A stretch of 64,000 nt of DNA, taken from positions 11,257,710 to 11,321,709 of the forward strand of contig CM119268.1 of NCBI GenBank assembly GCA_051294375.1. The letters run 5' to 3'. This DNA comes from Paraspadella gotoi (taxonomy: Eukaryota; Animalia; Chaetognatha). The number at the start of each line of letters is the position of its first letter. Within the stretch, counting starts at the first letter, position 1. Below are positions 557-47,103 of the stretch, in pieces. Below the pieces are notes generated by a model that saw only the letters and a list, made by a program, of their open reading frames with translations, ran no database searches and was not told where the DNA came from. Position numbers and translations under genes: made by a program.

Positions 557-3500
557 TTAGAGAGGGTCCATTTCCAAGGTTTGGTCCCTCTCGTGTTGCG
601 CAACGCGAGAGAGATACTGAGTCTCCCAGCGAAGGGCCAGTCGAGAAGGTCCGCTGCCCATGACGCAACAGAACTGCAGCAGGTTATAGCAGAGACCCGC
701 GTCAAAAGGTTCCAGGTCATCTTCCAGCTCGGCCAAATAAGTGATGCGGTGGCGAGAAGTCATCTCCCACGTAGTAGCATTCACGCTGAGAAGAAAAAAA
801 AGGGAAAAATTCTATTTTCGAGAAGAGTCACTCGTTTCTCCGAAAAAATTTGAAATTAAACAAGTTGGAGTAAACAATACCGGATCTGCTTACGATCATT
901 TAGCGGTAATTAAATCTTGAATGATTGTTGACTGTTTAATCGATTGACTAAATCATTAATGGGGATGGATTGATAGATTTATTGATTATCGTTGAGGTCG
1001 TTATAGATGTTATAATTGTTGTAATATTTATTTTTGCTGCATGTATATACAATTTATACATTTCTTACGTAAAAAAGGAAAAAAAATCTTAAAGTATAGT
1101 GATCTCGCCAGACGTTACTTTCAAAGAAAATTAATGAAAAAATAAAAAAAAAATGAATGATTGATGCGATAATTATTGATATAATAATAAAAAACAAACA
1201 AATGAATGGAGGAATATGAAACATAACAATTTAAAAGACCTCAATGATGGGAAGCCATATCTAAACTTGTAGTTTCCTATAGTTACACACTTAAGCTATT
1301 TTCAATCTTAAAACAGCGTGACGATAGGGTGTTTCACCCAAATTTGAAAAGTTTTCAGATCTTCATTTACATCTAGGAAAATATGTTGGGAGGTAAAAAA
1401 ATAAGATTGTACTACTTTTTGTCAAAATTGATTCAACACCCTTAGTGCTACCCTCGCCTAAAGGATAAAAAAGCACACCTTGGGCACATTTTCGTCAATT
1501 GACTGAATCCTAGTGAGCCAATCCACGTCCAAAGGATCTTATTAATTGCCCCACCTTCTAAGGATGATGCAGTAAAAATTTCAGCTTTCTATCATTACGA
1601 AGGCTCACACTACAGCAGTTACTGTGTGATGGAGTATAGAGAACAGAAGGCTTTAAACATTTAAACTCAAAATAAAATCATTTCTCTTCAGATCTAATAT
1701 TTTTTTTATATAATATCATACTAGTAGGAGCCAAGTGTCCTATTTTTTAAAAGGTGTGCCCACATCCTGGTGGATACTTCCTGTACAAAATAATAAAAAC
1801 ATATATCACATTATATATCACTTACTTTTTCAACAGTTTTTAAATCTACAGTGTTAATTGTGACATAGTAATTAGTAGTCGTCTTGCAACAGTTCAATGG
1901 ACCCTTAAAATTATCATGTCTAGATTAATATTGAAAACATGGACAAGTAGTGAGATCAGTTAGGGTAGAATAGCATCATTAATTTTTCATAAAATTAAAG
2001 TTGCATTTAAGTGCGGCTCCATGAAAATTTTAAGGGTCTATTGCACTGTTGCAAGATGACTAATAATTAGTATGTCACAATTAACACTGTAGATTTAAAA
2101 ACTGTTAAAAAAGTAAGTGATATACAGTAGTGATTTATGTTTTTAATATACAGAAAGTATCCACCAGGATGTGGGCACACCTTTTAAAAAATAGGACACT
2201 TGGCTCCTACTAATATGATAATATATACAAAAAATATTAGATCTGATGAGAAATGATTTTATTTTGAGTTTAAATGTTTAAAACCTGCTGTTCTCTATAC
2301 TCCATCACACAGTAACTGCTGTAGTGTGAGCCTTCGTCATGATAGAGTGCTGAAATTTTTACTGCATCATCCTTAGATGGTAGGGCAACTAATAAGATCT
2401 TTTGGACGTGGATTGGCTCACTAGGATTCAGTCAATTGACGAAAATGTGCCCAAGGTGTGCTTTTTTATCCTTTAGGCGAGGGTAGCACTAAGGGTGTTG
2501 CACCAATTTTGACAAAAAAGTAGTACAATCTTATTTTTTTACCTCCCAACATATTTTCCTAGATGTGAATTAATATCTGAAACCTTTTCAAATTTGGGTG
2601 AAACACCCTAGCGTGACGACAGCACAAAGAAATAATACTAAATGGTTATCTACGCCCAAGACGGGCTTAAGCTCGTCTGGCGAGATAAAAATAAAAAATG
2701 TTTTATTTTTTCAATTGAAACTCATTTTTTCCGGAATTTGATATTCAGGCTTTCAGCTTAGTCTACCAATTCGACCCACACGCAAAATTTCAATTAAACG
2801 ATCTAATCAATTATAAATCATGGGCGGTCGAAGCTTAGGGTGTTTTACAGGGAGTGATTTAAAACTTTAAAAATGTGTATCACTTCATCTTTTTTTTTTT
2901 TATGATGCATCGGGTATATTTTAATTGAAGCTACTTAACCAGACCTTTTTTTAACTATTAATGCAATGCAACAAGCACTGCTGAAAAAACCACTCCTGCC
3001 ACAGCACTCAAAAGAATCACAGCTGCTCTTCATAAATGCTTCTGAAAGATTGTGTCACAGCTCGAAGACGGTTTTAATATTTTGATTGAAAGTTATATGG
3101 GTCTCCCCCTTTAAAACGCCCTACTTAGCACAGTTTAGGGGATTTAGATGTGGATATTATCAAGCCCGAAAATCCTTCAATCAAATATTAAAATATTGCT
3201 TCAGCTGAAATCTTTTTTTTTCAGCTATATACAACAATGCCCTCTGTTACAGCCATGCATAATAACCCAAATAGTATTGGCTCTTTATAAATGTCGCCTA
3301 GTAGCAAAAATATAAGGAAGTCCCAACTACATCAGTTATCGACTTCATAAGCTCACAAGAGATGGCACTCAACCATAATGGCTGATTCAGTGTGAACTCG
3401 ATTAATAAAAGCAATTCTAAGATGATATAAATTTTTTTTTCTTAAGGTTAAAATAAGTCTTGTTAAACGGTGGCAGTTTAATAGCCATAGGATAGTAAAG

Positions 3501-5164
3501 ATAAGATGTCCTAATAAATATTTCTAAATGGAGTTCTTCAATTGCTCTCTTTAGAATTTTCCTTTTAGCATAGAAATCAGCTATTAGCGCGCATATTTTT
3601 GGTTTTTACGTATGCTACTATTGCTACCTGCAGCATTCTTATAAATGGCTCTAAACGACTCGGGCTTGAACGGTTTAAAAGGTTTAAAAGCTAAGGGGGG
3701 TCGCAAAGGCGGAATTCATTTTTATTTAAAAATGATTTACCGACAAACTTTAGAGGCCGGACCGATGGACCCACAAAGTGAATTATAGATCCGAAATTTG
3801 CCATAAGCAGATCCGGATAAAAAGTCGACATCCGCGCAACCACCTGGCAAGGTAGGTGTGAAAGGCGAGAAGTCCAATGACCATCCCTATGGAGGGGACC
3901 AGGATCACGAAATTGATAATGTATCCTAGGTTATCGAGAACGCGCTCCATACCCGGCATAGACATGTCCAACCTCATAATGCTTTTAGAGTTGATGTATA
4001 AAGAAGCCGAAAGGACTATTCCCTCTGCAAAATACGTAGTAACGATTAAACGTAAAATCACAGTGGTCGTTTGGTAAATTAAATATGTTTTTATTAACGA
4101 CTGACCGAAAAAAAGAAACCACCAGAAGGCGGCGTGATTTCTCTGCCCCACGCAAGTTTCGAGCCACGGACAATGATGATCGTATCGCCGAACGCAAAAA
4201 CCGCAGTCCTCGCAGTGTCTCGTCCGCAAGGGTTGAGGAATACCGCAAAAGCCGCACTCGCGCAGCAGAGGTTTCGAGGGATCGTGGGGCATGCGATAAC
4301 GAGTGGCCGGGTCCACCACTGAACGAGCATTGCGTTTGTTTTACAGAAACTTATGTAGATAAAATTTCTTGGTAATTTTTAACTTACCCCCGTCGACCTT
4401 GGTGAAGTCGTTCCAAAATCTTCCTCCTCTCGATTCAACATCGTCGCGGTTCTGCTGCCCGTCTTCCTTGGGGTCGTTGGGCGGAACGAAGCCAGGATCG
4501 CGACAACACGTAACGAAATAAAGGACGAGGGCGACGGCGTATAGAAATAAATATCCCAGGCCGCAAGCCACGTCCTGGAAGGAGACGGCGGCGCCGTCCT
4601 CGCGCCCAACGAAAGTGTCCGTCAATGCCTCGCGCATGATAGAGTTTCGGTGGCCCGAGAAGACGGTGAGAACGAAGGCGGAAAGCGCAACGTGGATGCC
4701 GCGAGCCAGCATCGCCTTGAAGCGGCGCCGATGTCGCCGCCGCTTCGACGCGTCAACGTCGGCGCATGGGCACCGCGAACGGCGGCGCCAAGGGTTTTTG
4801 CCGCTCAGAAGGCGGCGCGCGCGCTGCTGGGATGTGAGTTTCTTTGGAGGCAGACGAGCAGGGGATAGGCCGTTGGGGCTGGTATAGGTGGCGGAAGGGC
4901 CAGGTAATGACTCGGATTTCGAGATTTGAGTTTGCATTCTTACCCTTGATCCTCGCCGCTGCTGCGAGCATCTATCTCGCGATTCTCCGCGTCTTCGGCC
5001 GTTTCGTTCTCGCTGTTTGCGATGTCCTCGTCGTCGTCGGCGTCTTCTGGACTTTCTGGCCACGCGACACCAGCATGACGTACTTCTGGCGTATGTTGAC
5101 TCAAAGCTTGATACTCTTTTGAGTTACGCCACGGGGCCGCCGCGGCGACTCGGGACAGCGCCAT
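557..5164 (-). CDS. ZDHHC12: DHHC palmitoyltransferase, ZDHHC12-like; multi-exon, last exon (557-~786) separated by a ~3-kb repeat-filled intron
   Basis: DPGFVP motif and Cys-rich domain [42 protein letters not shown]-terminal TTWE and PFDAG...NL motifs lie in the 557-784 ORF. GT-AG junctions join the ORF pieces. Paralog assignment is from memory of the family. Confidence 0.85.
1091..2688 (+). mobile_element. Non-autonomous Helentron/DINE-like (HINE) element, family A, copy 1 (interrupted by a foldback element)
   Basis: Begins aaagtatagtgatctcgccagacg and ends with a hairpin plus cgtctggcgagataaaa (subterminal inverted repeat TCTCGCCAGACG/CGTCTGGCGAGA). The same ends occur at 15511 and 32461. 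Confidence 0.75.
1325..2610. mobile_element. Foldback/MITE-like DNA transposon with ~600-bp inverted arms and 9-bp TSD (Mutator-like)
   Basis: Arms 1325-~1919 and ~2020-2610 are near-perfect reverse complements (tagggtgtttcaccc...gggtgaaacacccta). GCGTGACGA is directly repeated at 1316-1324 and 2611-2619. Confidence 0.9.
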
Positions 5165-5912: not shown

Positions 5913-8900
5913 TCACTTGTTTCTAACGAACCCAGAAACGGGCGGGGGACCGAGAGGAGGCGGAGCAGAGTTTGTCGTCGAGGCCAAAGGCGTAGGTGCG
6001 AGCGGCGACGGATAAAAGTCGCTGTCAATGCGCATCGTCGGAGGAAACGCCAGTCCCGCATAAGGAGGCGTCGGAGCGGGCGGAAAAGTCGGAGGAGCCA
6101 TCGTAGACTCCGCCTGAATGCCGAAAAGCGTCGGCGGAGGCTGGGGATGTGAAACAGGGCTGGTTTGCTTGGCTCCCACCGGGCCCGCCTCTGAAACGCC
6201 GGTCACCACGTGGATCTCTCTTTTTCCAATTGTGATTCCGAGGAGAGAGTAAATTTCACGGCACATGAACAGCACAGTGTCCTCCGACTCCCAGTAGCAA
6301 AGGTGAGAGGTGAAGGCGAACATGTATTCGTTGAGCGACTCGAAGGGAGCTTCTTGAAGTACGAAATCTACTCGGCGTCCACCGTTAAGGGCGCCCATGT
6401 CGACGTCGTCCTCGGTCTGGGTCGACAAGTCCGAAACGGAAAAACGTCGCTGGTCTTCGGTGCCGCCGCTCACGTCATTCACCACACTATTTACGGCGCT
6501 TTCTACCTCCGAAGTCGTCATGTGATATTTCGCAAAATCGCTGATGGTGGACCAAGTAGACTTGAGCGATTCCATCAACTGAGCCTTGATGTTGGACCCA
6601 AGGGAGGCCAATGATTCCCTGAAATAATAAAAATACAAGTTTCCACTAATTCTTTATCTGTTTTTTTTCATTTTCTGGAGGAATCAACCGCTATCTATTT
6701 GACGAGACTGACCCTCGCTTATTACCTTTCTCCATACTCACCTTAGCTCCAGATGCAAGCGCTTTCTTCCTTTATGGTGGGGAATCATAACGGGCTTAAG
6801 TTTGAGGTGTGGGTGAATGAGAGGTTCGATTCGGTAAGCGACAGGATCGAACGGATGAAAAACGTTGAAGAAGCTACCGCAGTTAGGAAGTTTAAAGTCA
6901 ACACCGATGGCGGTCAGTCCGCGAACCGTCAGAAACATGCCTATTTAAAAAGTATGGATTGAGAACAATAAATCAATAAATGTAAAGAATGCAGAGTAAA
7001 TTTAATATTCTTTCAAGCAATTCACAGAAATTCAGTAAAAACTTTTTACCGATTGGTGAACCCAGCGCGAAGCAAGAAACGGGGGTAAAGGCGAGCTTTG
7101 GGTACTTGACAAATGGTTGGCCAGTTCCTGCCATGCCGACTTCGTAAGAAACGTGAGAGATAGAGACGCTTCTTTCGGCGACGTCCCTTTCATTCGAGGG
7201 CTCTGCCGCGGCTGCGGCCGCCTCCCGTCGCTGCTTTTCTTCGGCGCGTTTTTCATCGATGTACACGAGCAGCTTCTTCCGTGGACCCATAGGAATTCCC
7301 AGTTCCCTCAAGTCAGATTCTCCGCAAATGAGCAAAGTCTCCATATCGATCCTTTCCGCTTCCAACTTGGGCGCCACGTCAGTAATGTCGAGACGCGCCA
7401 GGAGATCGCCAAGCTCTTCTACCGTCTCTTCCACTTGCTCCTCTTGGACCGAATCCTCCTCTTCCTCCTGTACCGTCGTCACCTGCTCGGCTGCCTCCTC
7501 TTCGTCCTTCTGATGTCTCAAGACGTCGAAGAGAATGAGAGAGCCAAGGCTGTGGCCGATGAGGGAGACGCGCCCAGCAAAATCGGGGTTTCGTTCAAGA
7601 AATAGGGCGTGGAGTCTGTTGATCTCGCCGACGACGGTCTCGGCGATCGTTTGGCAGTATTTCGGCGACGTGTAAAAGAGGATGTCGAGAAGAGTCTCGT
7701 TGGTAAAATTGCGAAGACGGCCGATGCTGTTGAGAGTGATCTGCTTAAGGGCAGCATCGACGCCTGTTGCGTCCCCGTGAAGCGCCTCGTGCCAAGCGAC
7801 GGGTAGAAACTCGAGCCGACCGACGCGGCCGCTCTCGCGGTGCTGCTTGAAGTGAGATTCGAGCAGCGTTTCGTGGATGGCGCGCATCCCGTCGACGCAT
7901 TCGAAGATAGAGCGGAAACGAAGGTCGCAGACGGGACCGATGCCGTGGCAGACAAAGAACAAGTGGTCGATCTGTTCTGACTCCCCATCCTCGATGGAGG
8001 GGAGGAATGTGTCATCGAGACCCCGCTTGACAACGCGAGGGCGAGACTGACCTTCTTGGACGGTGCCCCACTCGTCGGGCTCGCTGTTCGGCATGAAGTG
8101 GACCATGGCGTGAGGAGAATGCATAACGATGATTTCACCAGCCGGAAATTCCAGCCTCTGATGCCAGACGCCGGTCGTCATAGCTTGTCGATAGTGATCC
8201 TCCAACTGATCGGCTAAATCTTCCTGATACGGAACGAATCTGAAATAAAAATTGAAATAAATTGAAATAAAATTGAAATAAAATGAATCTAACTTCGTAC
8301 AGGGATAATCAATGGATTCATACATGTAATTAACATGTAATTAACTGCTTGCATAGAACCTGTTGTCAGAGTCGCCCTTGTAAAACCAAGAACATCTTCT
8401 AACTTCTGAAGGCGTTTCCTTCCAGTAGATGGCCTCACGAAGTCTCGTTTCCATATTCACGTCGTAACGGTTCCCTAAAATTTAAAAATAAATAATCGAC
8501 ACGGAACGTTAAAGAAATTTAAAATAAATCGTCTTCAAGTCATTTTTACCGTCGGTGCTAATTATAAGCGCCCCCAGCTCTTCCTCTTCTTCGTCGCAAA
8601 CTTCGTTGTAAGCTTCTTCGAGTCCGATCGAGTCGATCCAAGTGAAAGGATGCCAGACTTTTTTGTTTTCCACCTGATTACAATAAAACCAATGATGCGA
8701 GACTGGCACGTACGATTGCGTGGCGGCAGGAGCCGCAAGAGATGTCGATGAAGATGTAGGCGGTGGCGGCGGCATCATAACCGGGGGCGCGTAACTGCCA
8801 GCAGCGGCTGGGGCCTCGGAAGGCGTTAAAGGGACGCTGCCTGAGCCTCCCACAGAGGGCGCCATGAATGATCCCAAATTTGGGTAAGACCTAGATGTTG

Positions 8901-11900
8901 GAAATGTTGGGGTCTGATTCGTAGCGGGAAGAGGAGCCGGAGACGGAGAGAATAAACCGATGGGCGATGGCGTGGACGTCGCGCCTACACTCTCAATGCC
9001 GCTGCCGCTGCCCCCGCCGGCACCGTGAAGCATTCCATGATGAACGCGCTGCCCCATTATCCCCTGGTTAAGCCGAAACCCTGCGTTAGTCAAGGAAGCT
9101 TTCGGCGGCGGCGCCACGTTCGGCGGTGGATCGTAGTTCTTGAGAACGACGTCGTCAACGGAGCGAGGAGCGGCGCTAACCGGCGGCGGCGCTGGAGGCT
9201 GCGCCGAATGTTGGGATTGAGAAGGCTGTGGCGGTATGAAATACGAGGGAGCATGAGGAGGAGCGCAAGGAAAAGAACCAGAAGGAACGGCAGGAGCAGC
9301 AGCGGAAGTTGACGAGCTTTGAGCGGTGAGTGAGGTTGAACTAGAGGAATGAGATGCATTGGATGGAAAAGTAGGAACGGCGTCAAAAGAAGGATGAGGA
9401 GGAAACTGAGATTGAGAGGGAGCGGGTGGTCCGACTTTGGGTCCGATGGTGAGCGATGAAGAACTTGCCGCACTGGAAAAGATTACAAATCTATTACGTA
9501 GGGTATAGTGCGGGGTAATTCGGAACACTTTAGTAAGTAATCAATTTTTTCATATAATAAATCAATTTCTGAAAACAATTTTAAGGTGATATACCACTCA
9601 AAGTGTCCCCTCTACAGGTTGATGCAGTCGTTTTTATTTTGCGGCCCTTAGGAGCCGCATTTCTTGAAGAAATGAAAGTGTATTAATAATACTATAATAA
9701 TTTTTTCCGCCTAATTATTTAAAAAATGTAGCTAATAGTAATTATATTTTATAAATTATTACTAACCTGTTATAAAAAGGATATGAGGTAATACAGAACA
9801 CTTTCTTTACAGTTTTTCCGTTTTAATTGTATCTATGTAAAAAATAATTAAATAATTGTGGCGACGACGTTTTCGTCGCCACGGATTTGACCCCAGTTGG
9901 CCACTCTGTTCGGTGGTCGCTCGGGAAGCCGGCTACTGATCTGATCTCTCTCTCTCTCTCTCTTTCTCTCTCTTACTTGATCAGTGCCGCGCTCTCTACC
10001 TTTAGTTCTCTCACGATCTCTCATTGTAACAACATGTCTCTAATATTGTATCATTGCTAATAAATGTACCTCTACATAATCTTTTCGAAATGCTCTCAAC
10101 AATAACTAAAAATAAACGGTCTCGTCTAGAACATAAGGAAGTGGTCTTTTCATAGAATTGAAACATTCTTTGAAATATTATATACCACTTCATTGATAGC
10201 CAGGTACTCCGGTAGTGAATAAACGAGACTGTGAGAGAGTCTTGATTGAAAGCTTGCAGGGACCTGCTATGTCATTATCTTGTAAGAGTGATGGAGGCCT
10301 AAAACCACCAAAGCCTGTCCAAAATCAGGGGCAAGATGGCTTATTTATTAAATATGCGATTTATTTCGAATTCAACATGGTTGATTCAGTACTGAAGAGA
10401 CAGTAATTATTGTTATGAGTTAGTGATAGAACCGTTCAATATAAGCAGTCCCTGAGCTTCGGATCAGGCTGTAACACCATGTTACAGGCGGGTTAAGCGC
10501 CCCGTCCCTCTAAACTGCCAGACGACCACCGGGCTAGAACCCCGGACCTTTGGGTTGGGAGGCGAATGACTTGCCTCCGGCACCAATGGCCGCTGATGAA
10601 CGGTTGGTGGGTTTTAGTCCACCATAGTACAAACAATAAGCTCAAGCAAGACTAGGTATAAACAAAAAACCAAAAAAAACAAAAATTAATTAAATAGTAG
10701 TAAATATTGAGGACAGTGTCTTTCGACAAATAGATTTTTGTAATTAAATTTTTTCTACGTTTGTTAAACATAGTGAAGATGTCCTGGTAACCAAAGAATA
10801 GTTTCCCATCTGTTAAATCCAAAAGATCTTTCGTACGCCATCATTGATAGCTACATTGAGTTTGTTCATGTCTTTAGCTAAAAAAGTCTTTACTTCACAA
10901 CCATAGAGCAAAATAGGAACACCATTAGAGTAAAACAATTTCATGAGTAATTCTTGAGACGGTTTGTATAAGGCATTAATTATGCAATTGCTCGATCGAT
11001 AAAAAGATGCGAGTTCTTTGGTAGGGTCAAATAAAGATCCCTTTTTACTTGATAGGTGAAATCCAAGATAAGTCCATCAGTTTATTAACTCTATTGGATG
11101 GATCATATTGAATGGATAATTTTTATATTGGTTGTACCAATTTCATATATATTAATATTTAACAGTCATATTAGTTATTATTACATTTGAAAACGACTAT
11201 TCAAAGACGAAATTTGACAAGCAACTTTGAAATTGCTGCTGCAGGTACTGAAGCAGCGGCGAAATGCCGTAAATTTATTATGGAAAGTCAAGTTGGTAAA
11301 ATAATTAATGTACCAAAAAAATTATAAAAGATAAGCACACAATTTCTTTATTTAATTTTATATTACGGTGTTCCTAATTACCCCGCACTACCCTTTAATA
11401 ACCACTTAACCGTACTTTCTCACCTATGCGTGCTCGAAGGTCGCGAAGAAGTCTGAAACTCCGGCGTAGCAGAGTCTCTCGTAAACGAAACAGGAGCGGC
11501 GAAGGCTTCGTTTCCGAACGGCGATCCGGCGGGGGCGGCGGAAAAAAAGTTGGCGGGCGAAAACGGTGGGCCACTAGAAGGCGCTTTTAGAGGAGGGAAT
11601 GGAGAAGGTCCCGAGAGAAAACCGCCTAAGAGGAGTGAAATATTGCGTAAAAAAAGGCCATCCAAACAAGAAAAAACTACTTTGAGGCGGTATATTCAAA
11701 CCGCCTCTCATTCATCATCATTCACTGAATGAATCCAAACATTCAGCCAATCCCATTGGCTCAGAGGGGGAACGGCGTTGCGTTCCATCCACAGTCCTAA
11801 CGACTTCCCTCTATGTTGGCAAAGCGAAACCGTCCTATGGTAACCGCGCCAGTAACAGGCGTCACTGAGGGTCGGAAGCCCCCAAAGCCAACAGTGAGAT

Positions 11901-12267: not shown

Positions 12268-12485
12268 GGCGGACGAGATTCGCCGAAAAGGCTTTGTTTC
12301 TATTAAATTGTTGGGTAATTAATAATGCGAAGTTCTCTTCGAATGTCGATTAGGACTAAATTAAAAAAAACAAAAAAAACAGCAGCTGAATGCCAATTGA
12401 AATGTCATTACAACTGATGACATTTTAACCCGAAGACGGAAGAACATAATAAATAAAAGCGAGAAAGACGAAGAGAGAGTTGGCT

Positions 12486-24293: not shown

Positions 24294-24390
24294 TGTACCT
24301 TTTATCCCTTTCAAATCGAAGACATTCTGCGTTAACCGAATAAATAACAAGGAATTGAAAAATCAAAACAAGGTCGGTGACGGAACAGTA

Positions 24391-33090: not shown

Positions 33091-33122
<32 letters not shown>

Positions 33123-38500: not shown

Positions 38501-39779
38501 TCGAGGTCGTCGATGAAGACTCCGAAGCTGTAGGTTCTTCCGCATCAGCATCGACCGACTAAAAAGATATTTTAAATTATTTTTGACATTAAATTAAGCT
38601 ATTAGTATTTCGTTGCTAAGTCGTACCTGCGACGAAACTACCCCGTCGGGCCCGATCCAAATCTCGACCCTCGGTGGAACGAAGGGCTTCTTCGACTTGC
38701 GCCTCTTCTTCGTCTCCTTAGCTTTTTTAGTCGGACGAAGCTTTTCCTTACGGCGCCGTTCCTCGTCCGCTTCATGCTTTTTACGAACCTAGCGGTGAAA
38801 AAAACTCATTTGATTATTACGATAATGTGGCGGTATATTCACACCGCCTCACGTCCACCATCGTTCAGCCAATATCATTGGCTCAGAGGGGGAACGCACC
38901 ATCCCAGGCGTTGCGTTCTATCCACAGTCCTAACACGACTTCCCTGTGTTGGCAAAGCGAGACCGTCCTAGGGTAACCGCGCCAGTGACTGGAGGCGTCA
39001 CTAAGAGTCGGAATCCCCCAAAGCCAACAGTGAGATGCCCCATCTCAATGGGCATCACAGGCAACCCGGCTGTTGCCATATTAAAATATTTTCAAATAAA
39101 ATAGAAGATCTCACGTCGTCAAATATAGAGTTGAGGGATTCTCTCGCGGTGATGAAGGGGTTGCTGGCCGCTAAGCTGCGCATATAGTAGTAGACGGCGT
39201 CTAATTTTCGCTTCGTGTAGACCGCAAGGATAGCCAATTGATTGTAGGGTCTCCCATTCTTTGGCGCGAGCTGCTGTGCCTTTAAGTAGTAGCTACGGGC
39301 CTTACCGTAGTTGGGATTAGGGTAAGTTTGTTCGCGATACCTACGAATGCATAGACGTTATAGTGACTAAAGAAATTAAAAGCAAGTAATTTGGGCAATA
39401 TTGTAAATTACGTAAATTAAGTAACTATAGAGCGTGATCGGTGAGTCTAACCTTGCGATATCTCCCAGGGCGATGAGGCACTTTTGGGCGGAGACGAGCG
39501 CCATCCTGACGGCGCGGCAGAGGCCCTCATTGCGGAAAGGCGTTGGTCTCTCGACAAAGTCGGCCACAGAAATTTGAAAAGTCGTCTCGAGACGCTGGAG
39601 GAGGGAGTCGTAGAAGAGGACGGCGTCGTCGAGGACCTGGTAAATCTCGGCGCGAGCCTGAGAGAAAAAATTGAAAATAAGAAATTTTTTTCTTAAAACA
39701 GACAGGTTTCTACTATGATTATAGCTTTTATCAGCGCAAATTGACAAATTAGACAAATTTTCACAAAACGTGTGTGTGT

Positions 39780-39811
<32 letters not shown>

Positions 39812-42800
39812 AAAAGAAAGAATGAGAGAGAGATGAGGTTAAAGTTTCCAACAAAAAATTGAGAGATAAAATAGTGGTGAGAAGTTGAGGACAGCTAAAG
39901 AGTGAGGAAAGTGGGAAAGAAGTGAAAGGTCAGAGATTTAAATGCATACATTAAGCAATGTACATTTGTACAACACGGTGAATTTTTTTTTTAAACTGAA
40001 ATTAACAATTAAATAAAATAAGTTGATTGAACTACAACTAAAGAAAAATTAAAAGTTAATTAAAGTTAAAAATATACAATCGAAAGAAAAACAATACTAT
40101 AAGAATTGTTAAAGAATTATGTAATTTAAAAACTCACTTTTTCCTCAGCCACTTTATCGCCCTCCTCTTGCGCCTTAAGGAGGCCCTTGCGTGAGAGTTC
40201 GATGATTTGGTAAAAGCAAGACTTCCACAGGAGTTGCTCGAGGTTGTTCTTGTTTGAAAGTTCAAGGTCGAGAAAGAGCAGATCCACCAGGAGGGAGCAG
40301 AGCCTCTCGCGCCTTTCTATCACCTTGGGGACGTTTTCATCGTTGAGGGGCCAGCGCGACAGAAGATTGCTTAGTTGATTGTCGACGGCCGTCACTTCTT
40401 GAAGGAGAGCGTCGAACTGTTGCAGCTTAGAGGGCTCTCGGTAAGGAGCGCCGCCCGTTGGGTCAGAATGCGCGAAACCGCCTCGCGCCATAGGAGCGCC
40501 TGGATGCGGCATACCGGCGGGACCTCTGGCCCTAAGATACTGCGCATGAGCCATAGAGGAAGCCTCGCCACTCGGGTGAAAAGCTTCACCCGAGCCATAT
40601 TCTGGCCCATAATAACCGGGATTGGCGTACGCCGAGGGATGACCGTACGGCGGTGGTCGGTAAAAGTTTTGCGCTTGTTGCGGTTGACCGTGCGGTTGTT
40701 GCATGTTTGGAGGCAAAAATCCTGGATGAGGCGGCGGCACCCTTCCACCTCCGTAATAGCCAGAGTAATGCTCCGGAGTCGGATAAAGAGAGTGAGGGGG
40801 TGTATCGGGCGAGTCGACGGAGGGCGCCCTCTGGGCCTGCGATGCCATTAGCGGCTTCGTCGGATTGCGAGGATCGTAGAGGCGATCTTCGTTGTATACC
40901 GACACTTGATGTCGATCATGGCGCCTTTCCTTTTGTTGTTGCTGTTGTTGCTGCTGCTGCTGTTGTAGGTATTGCTGACGAAATCTAGGCGGGGCATTTT
41001 TCGGAGGAACGAAGTGCTTTGGAGGTGGGGGATCTGCAACTGTAAAGAAAATGTATAAATAATTTTTATTGCCTCTACATTAAAGCGTATATAGTAAAAA
41101 TTCTATATTTAAGTTTATTTAAAATTCTAAAAGTGAGGAGCGAACAACATTAAACTAATGAACATTTATGTATAAAAAAAAGTAGGCCATATTTATACAT
41201 AGTACTAATCCATTAAATGTTAACATTTTAAAATAGTTTTCTGTAGGATTTTTTTGCAGATTTGGATTCGTCATGAAAAGTTGATATAAAGAAATATAAC
41301 TCTTTTTTAATAACTATTTCATTAAGTTGGTCAAATATAAGAAAAAACCTATATTTTAAGCTAAAAATTAAAATTTTATATATTAAATATAGTTTTTTTA
41401 AATTTTTAACCCACTTAATGAAAGAATTTTTAAGCCTGATCCGAAGCTCAGAGACTGCTTATATTGAACGGTTCGGTCACTAACTCATAACAATAATTAC
41501 CGTCTCTTCACAATCAAAATTAAGAAAATTTTGAAATTTTACGATTTTATGAGGATAGTACTATAAATATAGCCTACTGCGAAAATTAACAAGTTTGAGC
41601 AAACAATGTCGGATCTGCCTACGATAATTAAGCGGTAATGAGCTAATCCGATGATAAATCATGGTAATATTTTCTAACTTTCTATTTGTTATCTTAACAG
41701 ATCATAACAAATTGTAACATAACAAATCTTAACAGACTTCTTAATAAATCTTTGAAAAAATCTATAAATCAATTGATCTATCAATCATTACCAGTAGCTG
41801 CTAATACCAACTTGCATAATTTAGTCAACTTGCAAAATTTGCTCAACTGACATAATTTGATCAACTGACATAATTTGCTCAACTGGCATAATTTGGTCAA
41901 CCGGCTTTATTTGCTCAACTGGCATAATTTGGTCAATAGGCATAATTTGTCAAGCAATCAATCAATCAGAGAGAGATAGAGAGGGAAACTTTAAATCCAT
42001 CCAATCACGAGTAATTGGAGTATTATGCTAAGGGGGGACGGAGAGACGGACGGACGGACGAACACCATTTTTTTTTGGCATAATTTATCATAATTTGATG
42101 TTCTGACATGTTCTAAGTTAATGACCGACAAGATTTGGGGGGTGGACAGACGGACCGACAAAGTAAATATTTACGATAAGCAGATCTGACTAAAAATATA
42201 ATTTTTTTTTTGGATAAATTAATGTTTACTGATGTTATGTTGTTCATATTTGAATTTTAGAATTTTTGTATGCAACTTTCTACGCTCTGCTCTACATGGT
42301 AACAATTCTAAAACAGCCGTTAAAAACGCTCCCATTTGCAAACCATTATTTCATTGATTTTAAAAGTTGAGTAAAAAATACCAAAATCATTTGTTTTCAA
42401 ATTTTATATTCATCAGTTAAGATATGCCTTGACAATGAGTGGAAAAAGTTGACTTTTAAAATGGGGTTTCAATTTCTAACTCAGTTTTTAAATTCAATTT
42501 TTTAAAACTTTTAATACTTTTTAGATAAAGTATTTATTATTAATATGAAAAATTTAAAAGAATGATACTTACGAAAGCTCTTATATAAAAATTAAGCTGC
42601 CCAACCCCGGTTCAGGATACCCTATCACATTTTAATAAAAATTTTAAATTTGCCCTACAGCTATTGATTTTTTGAAAGATATCTCGTTTTTGACTATCCT
42701 AATTAAATTAAAGCTGGGCCAGTTAAATTTTATACTACAGTATTCGTAAGTACATCATTCTCTGATTTGCAAGGGCTTTCAGAAGATAATAATATTAATA

Positions 42801-45800
42801 TCATTTTATTTTAAATTTCTTCACTGGAAGTAAGAGAAAAAAATTGAATTTAAAACACAGCGAGTTTAAAAATCAGAGACGATTTTCAAATCTATCTTCC
42901 TGCTATCATTGCTTCAAGGCATATCAAAGTCGATTCTGATAAAATTTGCATATATAAATAGTTAGGGTATTTACTTTTAAATTCATATTTAACATTTAAC
43001 AAGTTTGAGCAAACAATGTCGGATCTGCCAATGATCATTATCGGTAATTAATTAATTAATAATTAAATAATTCAAGTTAATTAACTAGGCATTTAATTAA
43101 TTAATTTGATCCCAAATGTTTGTTTTTAGGTCTTTTCGCCACTAACCACGACAATATCAATGACGATAAGAATAATGCCGATAACGATTGACTTGATTGA
43201 TTGACTGATTAATTAATTATTGATTAATTAATTGACTAATTGATTAATTAACTGATTATTTTATTAATTAATACATCTTGTATTTACATTTAATATAAAA
43301 AAAAAAGAAGCATAATCAATTAGTGAAACAGATTTTTTTTGTTTTTCTCATTTAAACTCAATTCCACTCAAACAATTCCATCAAAACTTGATTTCCAGTT
43401 TAATCATACTTTTCTACCCACATACAAAATATCAGGTCAATCGCCGCATCCACTCATGAGCAATTGGTTTTCAAATAGTGAAATATATTTGTTTGTTTTT
43501 TCCACTCATTTCCATTCGGATGATTCAAAAACTTTGATTTTCTCATAATTTATCATAATTCGATGTTCTGACATGATATAAGTGCCCGACAAGATTGAGG
43601 GGGCGAACCGACGGACCGACAAAGTGAATTATAGAGTCGGGATCTGCTGATAAGCAGATCCGACTAAAAAAACTTTATGGGTTTGCAAATGGCAGCTTTT
43701 TTTAGCGGCGGTTTTAGAATTGTCATCAAGTAGATGTATGTTGATAACATCTTTTTGAATAAAGCGATACCGGGCGGAGATGGAGTCTTTCTCGCGGCTT
43801 CCATAATTCCTTCGGGTATCCTGATGATTCCGCCACCCTTGCCCGAGCGCGATGGGTCATTACTCTCCTGCTCTTTAACCTTTCCAGCAGCTCCAGTGTT
43901 AGCGTTAGGAACTGTTGATGAAGCGATTTTTGCTTCTTTGCCGTCTTTCTCTTTTCCCTCGGAAGAAAAGCGAGACTTTTTATCCGACTGAGACCGATTG
44001 CTGTCGTACGAACTGGCCGAGTCCTGGCGACATCGTTGTCGATTTCTATCGCCTGAGAAATAAGCATTTTTCGGTTTAAAATATTTATAAATCAAGAATT
44101 TGGTCCCCCCTTTGGGAACTCAAATGATTCGAACAAAGACGACGACGAATATAATAACGAAGACGACGACGAAGTCTTTGTACTTTGTGACCCGTAGTGG
44201 TCAGTAAGAATAACCTTTCCTAACCAAACAGAATGACCTTGTTATGGCTGACCTTTTCCAGCCAATGTAAATACGTATTTGTTGTTGTTATTTTTACCTT
44301 TTTGATTTTTACTTACTTATTTTCGTTAATATATGTTTTCTCTTCTCACAAAAAACACGTCTCGAATTTTTCTCTAAATTCTTATTTTTGAGTCACCTCA
44401 CCCCCAAAATATCTGAAAACAGAAAACGTCGAACCTTTCCCTTTGTCTTCCCTACGATCTTCCTTGCTTCTCCGAGGTGATTTGGATTTAGCATCATCTT
44501 TGGGTTTGACGGGCTCCTGTTTGTCCCGAGGGTTGTTCTCTTGTCTGTCCTTCTGTTTGTTTTCATTTTTGTCGCGAAGTTTTTCTTCGTGTGACGGCGT
44601 TTCGTTTTGAGGAGAATTAATATCACCAGTATTGGAATCCTCCATTTTAATTTCAAGCTTGCCTTCTTTTTCGAGCTTCAGTTCTTCCTCGTACATTTTA
44701 TCCTAAATAAATTTTTAAATGTTAAATTTTGAATGTAAGAATTTTGTTCGGTCATCCTCATTGACTCACCCTTTCAAAATCTTCTATCTCGGCGCTCCAC
44801 GATTCCACAAATTCACGGTCACGCGTGAGAACCTCGAAAGAGCATTCGGACTGACCGGAAGCTTCCTCGCTTACGTCTTCCATGTCGCGGGACCGTGGTC
44901 GACTTGACGACCCGCCACTGTCCGCGTGAGCTTCCTCTTTCAGTCTCGACGCCTCCTCGTCTAACTTTCGCTTCACGTCCCTGACATTAATGGCTCCGCC
45001 GCCTCCTCGGCCTCCGCGTCGGTTCAACGCCGGATTTCGCCCCTGAGGGGCAGGAGGTCCTCTTCGTTCGTCCCTCCGAGGAGCCTCCTTATCTCGTCTC
45101 CGATCCACGTCTCTCTTCTCAAAATCTCTGCCTTCGTCTCGACGTCCGTCGCGCCTTTCCTCCTTTTTCGCTTCTCTCTCCACAGACGGTCGACCGCGCC
45201 TCTCGTCGGTGTATCTCTTTCCGCCAGCCACGCCGCCTCCCGGACCGCAACCGCCGACGCCACTTCCGCCCCAATCCTCCCATCCTTTATCGCTCCCAGT
45301 GCTCGTTGTCCGGTTGCGATGATTATAGCCGAGCCGCCCCTGATCCAAGGAATCTTTCGACGAAGATCCTTTAACCCTGTCCCCTTGCTTAAGCTTGTCG
45401 TGCTGGCTGAAGGTTCTTGTGAGGCTGTTGCTGCCCGACAGCTGGTTTGTTACTTCCATTTTCTCTCTCATACTTTCGCTTCTGTTAATTCCTCCGTGTG
45501 GCGGGCCCTTGTCCCAACTCTCCCCGCGCCCATCTCTTCCATTATGCCTGCCCTTACCACGGCCACTACTGCTTCCGGTGGAATCTTTGTGAAACCTTCC
45601 CCCCTTCGTCTCCTCTGGGTTTCTTCTTTCTTTTCCCGCATCCACCTCAAAATTTTCCTTGTGTGGTCTCCCGAACTTTTGGGAGTAACCGCCGACGCCA
45701 GCGTCATCCCGAAGTCCGCGCTGATCGAAGCGATTTCCGGCGGCGGCCGCTCCCGGGTCCCTTGGGTGTGGCCGCTGATGATAATCGTCTCTCTTACTTT

Positions 45801-47103
45801 GATCGTGCGGGGTTTGATGATCATAGTCTTCGTAGTGCTGTTGCCTCCGATCTATTCTGTAAGCATCGTCTCTTCTCTCTCCACCCTCGTTCCGAATCTG
45901 CCTTGCGCCGCGGAAATGTCGCTCATCTTCCACCGGTGGCGCGTAGAAGTCCCCTCGGTCAGGGCGCGCCTCCTTCTGTCGACCATCTTTAGATGGATTG
46001 TTCCTACGTCCAGAATCTTTCCAAACTTCGCGTTGGTTTTCCTGGGATTGTTGCGACTGATGCGTTTGCGGTTGAAGCGGTTGCGATTGTTGTTGCTGAT
46101 GATGATTATTCGCTCGGCCATGATTAAACTTAGGACTTTCCTCTCTGAACTCTGTGTTTCTTCCAACGTTCTTGTTCTGTGAAGGGGGATGCTGCCTGGA
46201 TTCACGCTTTCCGCTCCGATGTTCAGCGACGTGGTGTCCTCCCCGATGATCGGCAGGGTGCTGTTGTCCGCTTCTGTGATCCGAGGCGTGATGCGGTGCA
46301 CCCCGGTGATTAGTCAGCGGACTTTCGCTTCGATGTCGATCTTCGGCTTTTACTGAATGTGCCTGAAAGGGTGAGATGATGGCAGGCGAATGTTATATCC
46401 TTATCTACGCTTCACTGATGAGAACAGACGTTAAATCTTTTCGTTCTCGTCTCGATTACTTACCTGCGACGATTTTCCTTTTCCAAATTCGGTTTCTTCG
46501 TGACTGGATCCTGTGTCGCCGGTATCCCCACGAGCTTTTGGAACGTAACGCGGGATATCCGGTCGCTGAGAATTAACATTTTAACCCACTACAATGAATA
46601 ATTTACGAGATAAGTACATATAAGGTAGTAATTACGAAAATAAGAACCTTTGGCTTTGACCCAAAACTGCTAGCATCTGTCAATGAAAGTTCTGTGAGTC
46701 GCTGTTGTAACGAAGAAACCTCGGACGAATGTTTGGAAGATTTTTGTTCCGCCGGGGCGTGACCAGATCCGCGATCGCCGCTTCCACTCGGAGAACCGTC
46801 GCCGCGCTTCGACAACTTTGAAACGCCCGCCTGATAAACCTTATTTCAAAAACCATAGTTTTTACCGAATTATCAAATTCGGTAGTATCGAAAAATTCCG
46901 ATACAATACATACCTGCATAACGGGTCTCTGCTTTTTGTTTCCATGATAATATTCATCGCCGTAATCTACATTTCTACCCCTCTGACCTCGATGTTGGGA
47001 AGGAATTTCTCTCCCATGCATCTGAAATTAGTTGGAGTACGGTATCATAATTATGTCATGACGTGACAAATATTGGTATCCTCACCCCTGATGCAGACGC
47101 CAT
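35536..47103 (-). CDS. SMG6: SMG6/EST1A nonsense-mediated decay endonuclease, many exons
   Basis: N-terminal EJC-binding-like motifs (RPVMQ|IYQAG, RPDIPRYVPK); Est1/TPR region (LEQLLWK, ALGDIARY, PKNGRPYNQLAILAVYTKRKLDAVYYYMRSLAASNPF); PIN domain (LLPDTNCYIDHL, NNDDLIL, LLTDDRNLRVKA). The ATG at 47103 is inferred. Confidence 0.93.
38826..39078 (+). mobile_element. ~255-bp structured dispersed element carrying a twister ribozyme fold, copy 2 (SMG6 intron, antisense)
   Basis: Homologous end to end with 11683-11942. Confidence 0.85.
38947..39029 (+). ncRNA. Predicted type-P5 twister ribozyme, copy 2
   Basis: UGUUGGC AAA GCGA GA CCGU CC-UAG-GG UAA CCGC GC CAGUGAC-loop-GUCACUA AGAG UCGGAAUC CCCC AAA GCCAACA. 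The conserved L1 GA is intact; T2 and P4 carry substitutions. Confidence 0.68.
41588..42192 (+). mobile_element. HINE/DINE-1-like element, family B, copy (SMG6 intron)
   Basis: Starts aacaagtttgagcaaacaatgtcggatctgc and ends gcagatctgactaaaa (subterminal IR); GGAC microsatellite; internal ~21-bp tandem repeats. Confidence 0.78.
42370..42980. repeat. Degenerate AT-rich palindromic MITE-like remnant (approximate limits)
   Basis: gatatgccttga...aaattcaatttt is mirrored by aaaattgaattt...tcaaggcatatc. Confidence 0.4.
42998..43666 (+). mobile_element. HINE/DINE-1-like element, family B, copy (SMG6 intron)
   Basis: Same 5' end; 3' hairpin ggatctgctgataagcagatcc followed by gactaaaa. Confidence 0.8.

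What the first reader, a model, noticed from the sequence alone, without database searches (positions are those of the whole stretch)
557..47103. Fourteen co-oriented housekeeping genes over 47 kb: a probable very long trans-spliced operon
Seen in sequence: 14 consecutive, functionally unrelated genes lie on the minus strand. Approximate stop-to-next-ATG gaps, from SMG6 downstream, are 1130, 175, 440, 310, 180, 100, 215, 360, 890, 255, 345, 220 and 750 bp. Most gaps are too small for a 3' UTR plus promoter plus 5' UTR. Established: polycistronic transcripts resolved by spliced-leader (SL) trans-splicing occur in nematodes, tunicates, flatworms, chaetognaths and other animals, and are enriched in housekeeping and mitochondrial genes. 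Inference: one or a few operons start at ~47.6 kb. Fourteen cistrons would be long for an animal operon, and it may continue past the left edge of the window.
Basis: partly seen in the sequence, partly recalled or inferred. Interest (0 to 1): 0.78.

Follow-up and report, generated by a model that had tools for sequence, protein, structure and literature searches.

The report
Fourteen-gene head-to-tail run, probable operons
Fourteen unrelated housekeeping genes of an unidentified invertebrate lie head-to-tail on one strand, with assembled messages only 15-90 bases apart where RNA could be checked. They are likely read as one or a few shared transcripts cut up by leader splicing, a known arrangement in some animals that may be unusually long here.

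Summary
Fourteen minus-strand genes fill 3783-47123: SMG6, NDUFB8, two SDRs, S49 peptidase, IleRS, VPS9, FKBP, alpha-SNAP, CZIB, SPOP, MPST, DDHD and zDHHC. No plus-strand ORF there has a Pfam match.

One public run (X1) proved to be spliced RNA. It could be laid only on 12000-21090. There:
- One contig runs unbroken through SPOP and MPST.
- One 7.2-kb contig ending in FKBP must, by length, also hold VPS9 and IleRS.
- Separately assembled messages lie 61, 15, about 90 and 36 bases apart.
- The DDHD message starts exactly behind the best splice acceptor of its gap and carries 21 letters that do not continue the local DNA.

This fits operons resolved by leader splicing. However, the leader's letters were never seen and are not shown to be shared between genes. 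The SPOP and CZIB contigs start on a CAG that could equally be a transcription start. Contigs cannot prove single molecules.

My odds: 0.6 that the run holds leader-resolved operons, and 0.15 that it is one 14-gene unit. The kind is known; only the length might be exceptional.

The parts
47124..47618 (.). Divergent intergenic region between the SMG6-like ATG (47123, minus) and a DUF92/TMEM19-like gene (ATG 47619, plus). It is the candidate bidirectional promoter for the head of the run.
   Evidence: Gene finder on both strands. DUF92 Pfam hits on the plus strand at 48451-49386. GC is 0.43 here against 0.28-0.36 in the 13 internal gaps. Promoter function is inferred.
35536..47123 (-). SMG6-like gene, predicted as 20 exons and 1955 aa. 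A long low-complexity N-terminal part lies upstream of a 2.7-kb intron.
   Evidence: EST1, EST1_DNA_bind and PIN_4 hits; models. The join of 47123-43771 to the rest is predicted only.
32094..34406 (-). NDUFB8 (complex I ASHI subunit). Two coding exons are split by a 1.7-kb intron that holds a repeat element.
   Evidence: NDUF_B8 hits in ORFs 34113-34502 and 32097-32384.
30966..31917 (-). Short-chain dehydrogenase a (3 exons).
   Evidence: adh_short hits; model.
29757..30527 (-). Short-chain dehydrogenase b (single exon, 256 aa; 'C-factor/sniffer'-type relatives).
   Evidence: the best relatives are 54-62% identical and unnamed; named animal hits are about 45% identical.
28308..29448 (-). Peptidase S49 (SppA-like) gene with introns.
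   Evidence: Peptidase_S49 hits in two ORFs; model; the longer relatives found number only 5, all about 270-300 aa, and the one named is bacterial.
24391..28129 (-). Mitochondrial-type isoleucyl-tRNA ligase, 998 aa in 9 predicted exons.
   Evidence: tRNA-synt_1 and Anticodon_1 hits; named relatives 'isoleucine--tRNA ligase, mitochondrial'; tblastn exon map.
21966..24293 (-). VPS9-domain protein.
   Evidence: VPS9 hit; models.
19929..21752 (-). Nucleoplasmin-FKBP. Its RNA contig ends at 19674.
   Evidence: NPL and FKBP_C hits. Contig record 4 has a piece at 19674-21064.
19613..19673 (-). Uncovered 61-nt spacer between the FKBP contig end and the SNAP contig start. It holds the best acceptor of the gap (AG at 19656-19655, score 7.5).
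   Evidence: tables 2 and 8 with my depth arithmetic.
17589..19612 (-). Alpha-SNAP message (CDS 19567..18442; 3' UTR of about 850 nt ending in an A-run behind ATTAAA).
   Evidence: SNAP hits. Contig record 3 and three joints. Depth arithmetic gives the 5' end at 19612.
17570..17588 (-). Spacer between the SNAP 3' end (17589) and the CZIB 5' end. It holds two acceptors, ctacAG|cAG| (scores 5.8 and 8.6), 15-18 nt before the CZIB ATG.
   Evidence: The CZIB contig 5' end comes to 17573 +/-2 by depth arithmetic.
16846..17573 (-). CZIB (CXXC zinc-binding, C1orf123-like) message; CDS 17554..16911. One intron is GC-AG.
   Evidence: CXXC_Zn-b_euk hits; joints 17063/17143 and 17306/17389.
12392..16755 (-). 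One 2845-nt spliced contig that holds both SPOP (CDS 16654..13903) and MPST/rhodanese (13559..12486). The 343-nt gap between them is retained. The contig begins on the AG of the best acceptor of the CZIB-SPOP gap (16755-16754).
   Evidence: Contig record 2, pieces and joints; MATH, BTB and Rhodanese hits; acceptor rank 1 of 7 in its gap.
12356..12391 (-). 36-nt spacer between the MPST contig end and the DDHD acceptor: a pyrimidine tract ending in AG at 12357-12356.
   Evidence: acceptor rank 1 of 8 in its gap.
5913..12355 (-). DDHD-type phospholipase gene (WWE, SAM, DDHD; CDS 12267..5913). Its 4352-nt contig starts at 12355 and carries 21 further 5' letters that do not continue the local DNA.
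   Evidence: Contig record 1: record letters 22-377 lie on 12355-12000. Pfam. Model.
3783..5164 (-). zDHHC palmitoyltransferase, the last gene of the run. A further exon at 785-557 is possible.
   Evidence: DHHC hit; models differ.

Best explanation
The fourteen same-strand genes are likely transcribed as one or a few polycistronic units, and the downstream messages are predicted to be completed by splicing a short leader onto an acceptor just upstream of each start codon (a spliced-leader-type operon).

SHOWN:
- The gene order, the shared strand and the gap sizes.
- X1 holds spliced RNA of these genes.
- One contig runs through SPOP and MPST.
- Where messages were assembled apart, 61, 15, about 90 and 36 nt separate them.
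- The DDHD message begins directly behind a canonical acceptor and carries 21 letters that do not continue the local DNA.

INFERRED:
- That the 21 letters are a trans-spliced leader shared with other genes.
- That the 7.2-kb contig ending in FKBP also holds VPS9 and IleRS.
- That the bridging contigs reflect real precursors.
- That transcription enters from the divergent region at 47.1-47.6 kb, and perhaps again at the larger gaps.

Most likely layout: a few abutting units, such as IleRS-VPS9-FKBP and SPOP-MPST-DDHD, rather than one 14-cistron unit.
For: 1. ARCHITECTURE. There are 14 of 14 genes on the minus strand, and 0 of 69 plus-strand ORFs have a Pfam hit. Stop-to-ATG gaps are 97-1129 nt, and 9 of 13 are under 400 nt.

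2. X1 IS SPLICED RNA. It shows 10 joints with GT/GC..AG ends on the minus strand.

3. BRIDGING.
- Record 2 (2845 nt) covers 16755 to 12392 with all introns removed and the SPOP-MPST gap retained (piece 13249-14184).
- Record 4 (7192 nt) has about 5755 letters upstream of FKBP exon 3. The predicted FKBP exons 1-2, VPS9, IleRS and the two gaps sum to put its 5' end at about 28112-28250, which is the IleRS start (my arithmetic).

4. TIGHT ENDS. Bin depths table 2 equal contig depth times covered bases nearly exactly. This fixes the SNAP 5' end at 19612, the CZIB 5' end at 17573 +/-2 and the CZIB 3' end at about 16846. Together with the FKBP end (19674), SNAP end (17589), SPOP start (16755), MPST end (12392) and DDHD start (12355), the spacers come to 61, 15, about 90 and 36 nt. 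The 887-nt SNAP-CZIB gap is almost entirely SNAP 3' UTR.

5. ACCEPTORS.
- The DDHD contig starts 0 nt, and the SPOP contig 2 nt, from the exon start set by the top-scoring AG of their gaps.
- The CZIB contig starts 1-4 nt from the two top AGs of its gap.
- By my post hoc arithmetic, 2 of 4 contig starts within +/-2 nt has p of about 0.006, and 3 of 4 within +/-4 nt has p of about 0.0008.
- At those three genes, and at the best AG upstream of the SNAP ATG (which the SNAP contig does not reach), no ATG lies between the acceptor and the start codon.

6. LEADER. Record 1 carries 21 letters before 12355 that do not match 12356 onward.

7. PRECEDENT.
- Such packing of unrelated housekeeping genes with spacers of 0-100 nt is how SL operons look in Ciona (median 1 bp), Oikopleura (about 31 bp) and C. 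elegans relatives (about 110 bp) (PMC7986045, passages).
- The same holds in chaetognaths, with 3 nt between poly(A) site and acceptor (PMC2481426, passages) and 18% of genes in operons (PMC12460157, passages).

8. COMPOSITION. The internal gaps are AT-rich like introns (GC 0.28-0.36), whereas the divergent region at the head has GC 0.43.
Against: 1. The letters of the 21-nt leader were never seen, because 75 of 81 loose ends were not printed. It is not shown to be shared by other genes, and it could be a cis-spliced upstream exon.

2. The SPOP contig starts on the A of c-AG with no leader, and the CZIB contig starts on or beside such an AG. An A after a C is also what an initiator-type start looks like, so these two genes may have their own promoters.

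3. The two kinds of 5' end do not fit one simple leader. The DDHD leader cannot end in G, because the match would then have run on into the genomic AG. The contigs that start on the AG would be explained most easily by a leader that ends in AG.

4. The SNAP contig starts at 19612, 42 nt short of the best acceptor and not behind an AG.

5. Contigs are assemblies. A contig across two genes can arise from overlapping UTRs or read-through, as the tool itself warns.

6. Acceptor scores do not discriminate.
- 7 of 13 downstream genes have an AG at or above the 90th percentile of background AGs in their AUG-free zone. By my rough estimate, chance alone would give about 4-5.
- SDR-b has none (best score -10.6), and SDR-a, IleRS and zDHHC are weak.

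7. The gaps of 1129, 748 and 438 nt could hold promoters.

8. Nothing was laid on 21.1-47 kb or 1-12 kb, so 8 of 13 junctions have no direct RNA evidence. For two of these (IleRS-VPS9 and VPS9-FKBP) there is only the length inference from record 4.

9. No SL RNA family was found in the window. None was expected there, and no whole genome is held.
Confidence: 0.6

Rival explanations
1. One single operon of 14 (or more) cistrons is driven from the divergent region at 47.1-47.6 kb. Every downstream gene depends on leader splicing.
For: All 14 genes share one strand and no plus-strand gene lies between them. The only GC-richer, divergent, promoter-like gap is at the head. The 887-nt gap turned out to be 3' UTR, so large CDS gaps need not mean promoters. 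Contig depths differ by only about three-fold (158-490), but the tool warns that depth cannot rank genes.
Against: Three gaps (1129, 748, 438 nt) were not examined with RNA. The SPOP and CZIB contigs start on CA(G) without a leader. Operons of this length are not in the passages I read: nine genes in Paraspadella, a nine-gene operon in Oikopleura, and up to seven in Ciona. Eight for C. elegans is recalled. I made no systematic search for longer ones.
Confidence: 0.15
2. There are no operons. This is a compact genome in which each gene has its own small promoter inside the short gap or in the upstream gene's 3' UTR. Bridging contigs come from overlapping UTRs or read-through, and the DDHD leader is an ordinary cis-spliced 5' exon.
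For: The SPOP contig begins at an A preceded by a C, downstream of A/T-rich DNA, and the CZIB contig begins on or beside a similar CAG. Contigs cannot prove single molecules. Acceptor scores are near chance expectation. With random orientation, a run of 14 is expected about once per 20,000-gene genome (my arithmetic).
Against: Only 15 and 36 nt separate two message pairs, and the DDHD message starts exactly behind a pyrimidine tract plus AG with non-local letters. A cis 5' exon for DDHD would have to lie inside or upstream of MPST. To my knowledge (recalled), animals with messages this tightly packed are mostly those with leader splicing.
Confidence: 0.2
3. A shared first exon is spliced in cis. 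One capped non-coding exon near 47.2 kb, or at the head of each sub-cluster, is spliced alternatively to the acceptor of each downstream gene, and each gene ends at its own poly(A) site.
For: It would explain a non-local 21-nt leader at an acceptor without any SL RNA gene. It would also explain the orphan acceptors upstream of several ATGs.
Against: No joint from 12355 to an upstream exon was listed, although short sides may go unreported. Splicing over up to 35 kb past many stronger sites is unlikely. I know of no precedent at this scale (recalled, not searched).
Confidence: 0.05

Closest known systems
Chaetognath operons (Spadella cephaloptera RPS14-PCNA; Paraspadella gotoi genome-wide)
   Same: Unrelated housekeeping genes lie head-to-tail with very short distances between poly(A) site and acceptor. 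In Spadella that distance is 3 nt (PMC2481426). In P. gotoi 18% of genes are in operons defined by gaps under 250 bp, and no leader is specific to downstream genes (PMC12460157). The spacers of 15-90 nt seen here would pass that definition for at least IleRS through DDHD.
   Different: The window's organism is not identified. Its leader is unseen, and 21 letters is shorter than the 33-36 nt chaetognath leaders in Table 3 of PMC2481426. The longest operon reported there has nine genes. The operon table of PMC12460157 (xlsx supplement) could not be read, so I cannot say whether this gene run is already listed there.
Tunicate operons (Ciona intestinalis, Oikopleura dioica)
   Same: A single leader serves both monocistronic and operonic genes. 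Spacers are about 1 bp (Ciona) and about 31 bp (Oikopleura). The genes are enriched for housekeeping functions. A nine-gene operon is known in Oikopleura (PMC7986045; PMC11067885).
   Different: In a single-gene IleRS tree the window groups with none of the named clades included. No tunicate was among the rows, so placement with tunicates was not tested. Introns here have a median of 87 nt with canonical GT-AG ends.
Caenorhabditis operons resolved by SL2
   Same: A polycistronic precursor, spacers of about 100 nt (median 111-112 bp in C. briggsae), and housekeeping and mitochondrial genes.
   Different: There is no evidence here for a specialised downstream leader. The organism does not group with any named ecdysozoan. 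The maximum of eight genes per operon is recalled, not read.
Kinetoplastid polycistronic transcription units
   Same: Long same-strand runs of unrelated genes start at divergent strand-switch regions, and every message is capped by a leader.
   Different: Those genomes almost lack cis-introns, and their units hold tens to hundreds of genes. Here the genes carry many spliceosomal introns and are of animal type (NDUFB8, SMG6, SPOP). This comparison is recalled, not tested.

Membership tests
Metazoan operon resolved by spliced-leader trans-splicing | Two or more same-strand genes whose mature messages are separated by a very short intercistronic stretch (0 to about 250 nt) | tested here: met
   Contig ends, with depth arithmetic, give spacers of 61, 15, about 90 and 36 nt, and 0 (bridged) for SPOP-MPST. 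This was tested only for the five junctions in 12000-21090.
Metazoan operon resolved by spliced-leader trans-splicing | A polycistronic primary transcript that spans the junctions | tested here: inconclusive
   One contig holds SPOP plus MPST. Another, by length, holds IleRS plus VPS9 plus FKBP. Assembled contigs do not prove single molecules.
Metazoan operon resolved by spliced-leader trans-splicing | The same non-genomic leader on the 5' ends of downstream (and usually many unlinked) messages, joined at a 3' splice acceptor | tested here: inconclusive
   The DDHD contig carries 21 non-local letters directly before acceptor 12357-12356. The letters were not printed, and no second gene showed a leader. 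The SPOP and CZIB contigs start on the AG without one.
Metazoan operon resolved by spliced-leader trans-splicing | SL RNA genes (leader exon, GT donor, Sm site) in the genome | not testable with these tools
   No whole genome is held. Rfam finds no family in the window.
Metazoan operon resolved by spliced-leader trans-splicing | One promoter at the head and no obligatory promoter in front of downstream genes | not testable with these tools
   No CAGE, ATAC or raw reads were available. There are only composition hints (GC 0.43 at 47124-47618 against 0.28-0.36 in the gaps).
Metazoan operon resolved by spliced-leader trans-splicing | Functionally unrelated, broadly expressed housekeeping or mitochondrial genes | tested here: met
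   Pfam assignments include NDUFB8, a mitochondrial-type IleRS, MPST, SNAP, FKBP and SMG6. All genes in the laid stretch are present in the one RNA run.

The most novel reading that the evidence does not exclude
The whole run from 47.1 kb to at least 3.8 kb is one leader-resolved operon of 14 or more cistrons spanning over 43 kb. That would be longer than any animal operon in the passages I read (nine genes in Paraspadella and Oikopleura, seven in Ciona). It would sit in a bilaterian lineage that the single-gene tree places with no named phylum. It would also carry a bacterial-type S49 peptidase gene that has gained introns and joined the operon.
Probability: 0.15. Interest if true: 0.7.

Novelty: new member of a known kind. 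Interest (0 to 1): 0.5.

Why it matters
If leader splicing is confirmed, this locus gives a compact and well-defined test case. At least eight abutting housekeeping genes (IleRS to DDHD), and perhaps fourteen, have mapped message ends. It could be used to ask how long an animal operon can be and where internal promoters sit. It could also show whether a foreign, bacterial-type gene (S49 peptidase) can be domesticated simply by landing in an operon. If the organism belongs to a phylum where operons are already described, the finding is an ordinary though long example. The interest rises only if the unit is single or the lineage is new for operons.

Tried and rejected
- WHOLE GENOME. None is held.
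- EARLIER NOTES. Nothing exists on this genome or on look-alike stretches. Word searches returned only other genomes.
- RNA RUNS. No RNA holder is listed on record. The one holder, X1, was marked 'RNA?' and was shown to be spliced RNA only by laying it.
- LAYING 12000-31999. 
- LOOSE-END TABLE. It printed 6 of 81 rows, all in an intronic repeat, so the leader's letters were not obtained.
- EXACT 29-MER OF THE DDHD 5' EXON IN METAGENOME CONTIGS. There were 0 matches.
- The search for related loci WITH AN SDR ALIGNMENT. The patterns chosen were generic SDR motifs. The 80 loci kept are 30-40% identical and were not examined; the close relatives were not reached. The loci were not used.
- RFAM ON THE WINDOW. 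There were 0 matches.
- TWO CHAETOGNATH LEADER MOTIFS (Table 3 of PMC2481426) SEARCHED IN THE WINDOW. Each gave one match, with 3 and 2 mismatches. 19 of 100 and 34 of 100 shuffles did as well. The first match lies inside the intronic repeat and has no GT donor after it. Both were rejected as chance.
- PROTEIN ATLAS. It recorded no informative taxa.
- TAXON.
  - The best named IleRS relatives are an annelid, a brachiopod and insects at 45-49% identity.
  - In a FastTree of 37 rows (36 chosen by me from the 120 listed hits, plus the window), the window groups only with one unnamed protein. It falls outside the arthropod, vertebrate and mollusc-annelid-nemertean-brachiopod groups.
  - The phylum stays open.
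- SUPPLEMENTS OF PMC12460157. The spreadsheet with the operon list is too large to read, and the PDFs held nothing useful.
- GENE FINDER. The first settings fused all genes, so the penalties were raised. Its plus-strand 'genes' inside the run are shadows of the minus-strand coding frames and have no Pfam support.
- ACCEPTOR-SCORE ENRICHMENT. This is not convincing as stand-alone evidence.

Full report
WHAT IS THERE

The window is animal DNA with short introns. Of 52 predicted introns, the median length is 87 nt, and 10 are confirmed by RNA joints with GT/GC..AG ends.

Pfam scans of all stop-to-stop ORFs gave these counts:
- 31 of the 100 minus-strand ORFs of 80 aa or more that lie below 47103 have a match.
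- 5 of 45 shorter minus-strand ORFs have a match; these were taken from the whole window.
- 0 of 69 plus-strand ORFs of 75 aa or more below 47103 have a match.

The first plus-strand gene is a DUF92/TMEM19-like gene. Its predicted ATG is at 47619, which is 494 nt from the SMG6-like ATG at 47123 and divergent from it.

A small splice-aware gene finder that I wrote and trained on the window recovers all RNA-supported introns. It yields 14 genes on the minus strand: SMG6-like, NDUFB8, two short-chain dehydrogenases, an S49 peptidase, mitochondrial-type IleRS, a VPS9-domain protein, nucleoplasmin-FKBP, alpha-SNAP, CZIB, SPOP-like MATH-BTB, MPST/rhodanese, a WWE-SAM-DDHD phospholipase and a zDHHC palmitoyltransferase.

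The bases between each stop and the next ATG are 1129, 176, 438, 308, 178, 97, 213, 361, 887, 256, 343, 218 and 748.

Two details stay open:
- Whether 47123-43771 is the low-complexity N-terminus of SMG6 or a separate gene.
- Whether zDHHC ends at 3783 or has a last exon at 785-557.

IS IT MORE THAN CHANCE?

Co-orientation of 14 genes has probability 2^-13 for a given run. With random orientation, about one such run is expected in a genome of 20,000 genes (my arithmetic), and the first stage looked at very many windows. Orientation alone is therefore weak evidence. The RNA data carry the argument.

RNA EVIDENCE

No whole genome is held. One public run, coded X1, holds 76% of the sampled words of 17000-26999. 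The second and last call laid it on 12000-21090.

X1 is spliced RNA. Its contigs skip exactly the predicted introns. Four contigs matter:

- Record 2 (2845 nt, depth 490) runs from 16755 to 12392 with all SPOP and MPST introns removed. The 343-nt SPOP-MPST gap is retained within one unbroken piece (13249-14184).
- Record 4 (7192 nt, depth 158) matches 21064-19674 with its letters 5755-7145. About 5755 letters therefore lie upstream of FKBP exon 3. Adding the predicted FKBP exons 1-2, the VPS9 gene, the IleRS gene (exon map checked by tblastn with two relatives) and the two gaps puts its 5' end at 28112. With alternative intron calls it lies up to about 28250. Either way it falls at the start of IleRS. 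This tricistronic reading is an inference from lengths.
- Record 3 (1780 nt, depth 289) is alpha-SNAP. Its 3' end is at 17589, so the 887-nt SNAP-CZIB gap is almost entirely SNAP 3' UTR.
- Record 1 (4352 nt, depth 170) is the DDHD message. Its letters 22-377 lie on 12355-12000, so 21 letters at its 5' end do not continue the local DNA.

CONTIG ENDS FROM DEPTH ARITHMETIC

In one search table 2 each bin's summed depth equals contig depth times covered bases, to within rounding, for the five exon-only bins I checked.
- Bin 19600-19903 then requires exactly 13 bases of the SNAP contig, which puts its 5' end at 19612.
- Bin 17472-17775 requires about 102 bases of the depth-247 CZIB contig, which puts its 5' end at 17573 +/-2.
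- Bin 16560-16863 requires 18 bases of the CZIB contig, which puts its 3' end near 16846.

The stretches between consecutive assembled messages are therefore:
- FKBP|SNAP: 61 nt
- SNAP|CZIB: 15 nt
- CZIB|SPOP: about 90 nt
- SPOP|MPST: none (bridged)
- MPST|DDHD: 36 nt

A small unexplained surplus in bin 12304-12607 (about 360 depth units) would fit a low-depth contig across the 36-nt spacer. That is speculation.

WHERE THE MESSAGES START

I scored all AG dinucleotides with a matrix built from the 52 intron acceptors. True acceptors have a leave-one-out median of 6.2. Other non-coding AGs have a median of -1.5 and a 90th percentile of 4.8.

- DDHD: the contig starts exactly behind the top AG of its gap (ttttttttgttttttttaatttAG|t).
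- SPOP-MPST: the contig starts on the AG of the top acceptor of its gap (tatttaacAG|g).
- CZIB: the contig starts at the pair of top acceptors ctacAG|cAG|, 15-18 nt before its ATG.
- SNAP: the contig stops 42 nt short of the top acceptor of its gap.

By my post hoc arithmetic, 2 of 4 starts within +/-2 nt of the best acceptor in the last 150 nt has p of about 0.006. Three of 4 within +/-4 nt has p of about 0.0008. At DDHD, SPOP and CZIB, and at the best AG upstream of the SNAP ATG (which the SNAP contig does not reach), no ATG lies between the acceptor and the start codon.

Across all 13 downstream genes the acceptor scores are not discriminating. Seven have an AG at or above the 90th percentile in the AUG-free zone, against a rough chance expectation of 4-5. 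SDR-b has none.

INTERPRETATION

Unrelated housekeeping and mitochondrial genes lie head-to-tail. Their messages are 0-90 nt apart. Contigs bridge some junctions. One message begins at an orphan acceptor with a non-local leader. This is the anatomy of animal operons resolved by spliced-leader trans-splicing. Passages I read describe the following:
- Median spacers of 1 bp in Ciona, about 31 bp in Oikopleura and about 111 bp in Caenorhabditis briggsae (PMC7986045).
- A nine-gene operon in Oikopleura (PMC11067885).
- A 3-nt spacer in Spadella (PMC2481426).
- In Paraspadella gotoi, 48% of genes trans-spliced, 18% in operons (defined by gaps under 250 bp) and a longest operon of nine genes (PMC12460157).

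By that 250-bp criterion the eight genes from IleRS to DDHD would count as one operon. The CDS gap of 178 nt would add S49 as a ninth.

WHAT SPEAKS AGAINST IT

- The leader's letters were never seen, because only 6 of 81 loose ends were printed and all lay in an intronic repeat. It is not shown to be common to several genes, and it could be a cis-spliced exon.
- The SPOP and CZIB contigs carry no leader and begin on the (C)AG itself. An A after a C is also what an initiator-type transcription start looks like.
- The ends are not mutually consistent with one simple leader. The DDHD leader cannot end in G, because the alignment would then have extended into the genomic AG. Contigs beginning on the AG are explained most easily by a leader ending in AG that forks from the unspliced path.
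- Contigs are not molecules. Bridging can come from read-through or overlapping UTRs.
- Eight of 13 junctions have no direct RNA evidence. For two of them (IleRS-VPS9 and VPS9-FKBP) there is only the length inference from record 4.
- The gaps of 1129, 748 and 438 nt could hold promoters.

My odds:
- 0.6 that the run contains leader-resolved operons, most likely a few abutting units such as IleRS-VPS9-FKBP and SPOP-MPST-DDHD.
- Within that 0.6, about 0.15 that it is one unit of 14 cistrons.
- 0.2 for separate promoters throughout.
- 0.05 for a shared cis first exon.
- The remaining 0.15 stays unassigned.

WHICH ORGANISM?

This is unresolved.
- The best relatives of SDR-b and IleRS are unnamed proteins at 54-62% identity. 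Named relatives are generic animals at 42-49%.
- In a FastTree of 37 IleRS rows (36 chosen by me from the 120 listed hits, plus the window) the window groups only with one unnamed protein. It falls outside the arthropod, vertebrate and mollusc-annelid-nemertean-brachiopod groups. A single-gene tree cannot place a phylum.
- A lineage poorly represented in named databases fits, for example a gnathiferan such as a chaetognath. This was not tested.
- Two chaetognath leader motifs from the literature match the window no better than chance.
- The operon list of PMC12460157 sits in a spreadsheet that could not be read. I cannot say whether this run is already annotated somewhere.

VERDICT

The operon interpretation is partly supported by RNA, while the single 14-cistron operon is unproven. 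The kind of system is known in several animal phyla. Only the possible length and the unidentified lineage give it more than ordinary interest.

Noticed in passing
28308-29448 (minus): The S49 (SppA-type) peptidase gene has spliceosomal introns and sits between animal genes. The only longer relatives found (5, about 38-49% identical) include a bacterial 'S49 family peptidase' as the one named hit. It is a candidate old horizontal transfer now embedded in the run. The search was shallow (682 candidates).
   Followed up: partly
15500-16140, 32450-33457, 1081-1324, 2655-2695: A repeat family has short inverted ends (ctcgccagacg / cgtctggcgag) and an internal 22-bp satellite (about ATGATAACCAAATATTGATGCG). 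It lies in the SPOP and NDUFB8 introns and twice near the left end. RNA contigs pile up on it (bin depth up to 5813, 42 contigs at one place), so it is abundant in the transcriptome or in many loci.
   Followed up: partly
17064-17142 (minus): The second CZIB intron uses a GC-AG pair. The RNA joint confirms it.
   Followed up: yes
29757-31917 (minus): Two short-chain dehydrogenase genes lie in tandem, one with three exons and one intronless. This looks like a local duplication.
   Followed up: no
19674 (end of contig record 4): The 7192-nt contig has 47 further letters after its last matched base at 19674. By depth arithmetic these do not lie on the next 61 nt of the window. They might be a tail or something else; I did not see them.
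   Followed up: no
49700-64000: The right 14 kb is AT-rich and full of microsatellites: (TC)n, (CTTT)n, (TAAT)n. It has no Pfam-supported gene on either strand. This contrasts sharply with the dense run.
   Followed up: no
44396-44677 (minus): There is a weak bZIP_Maf match (E 6.7e-4, below the curated cut-off) in a frame overlapping the predicted SMG6 N-terminal exons. It may be chance, or a hint that 47123-43771 is a separate gene.
   Followed up: partly
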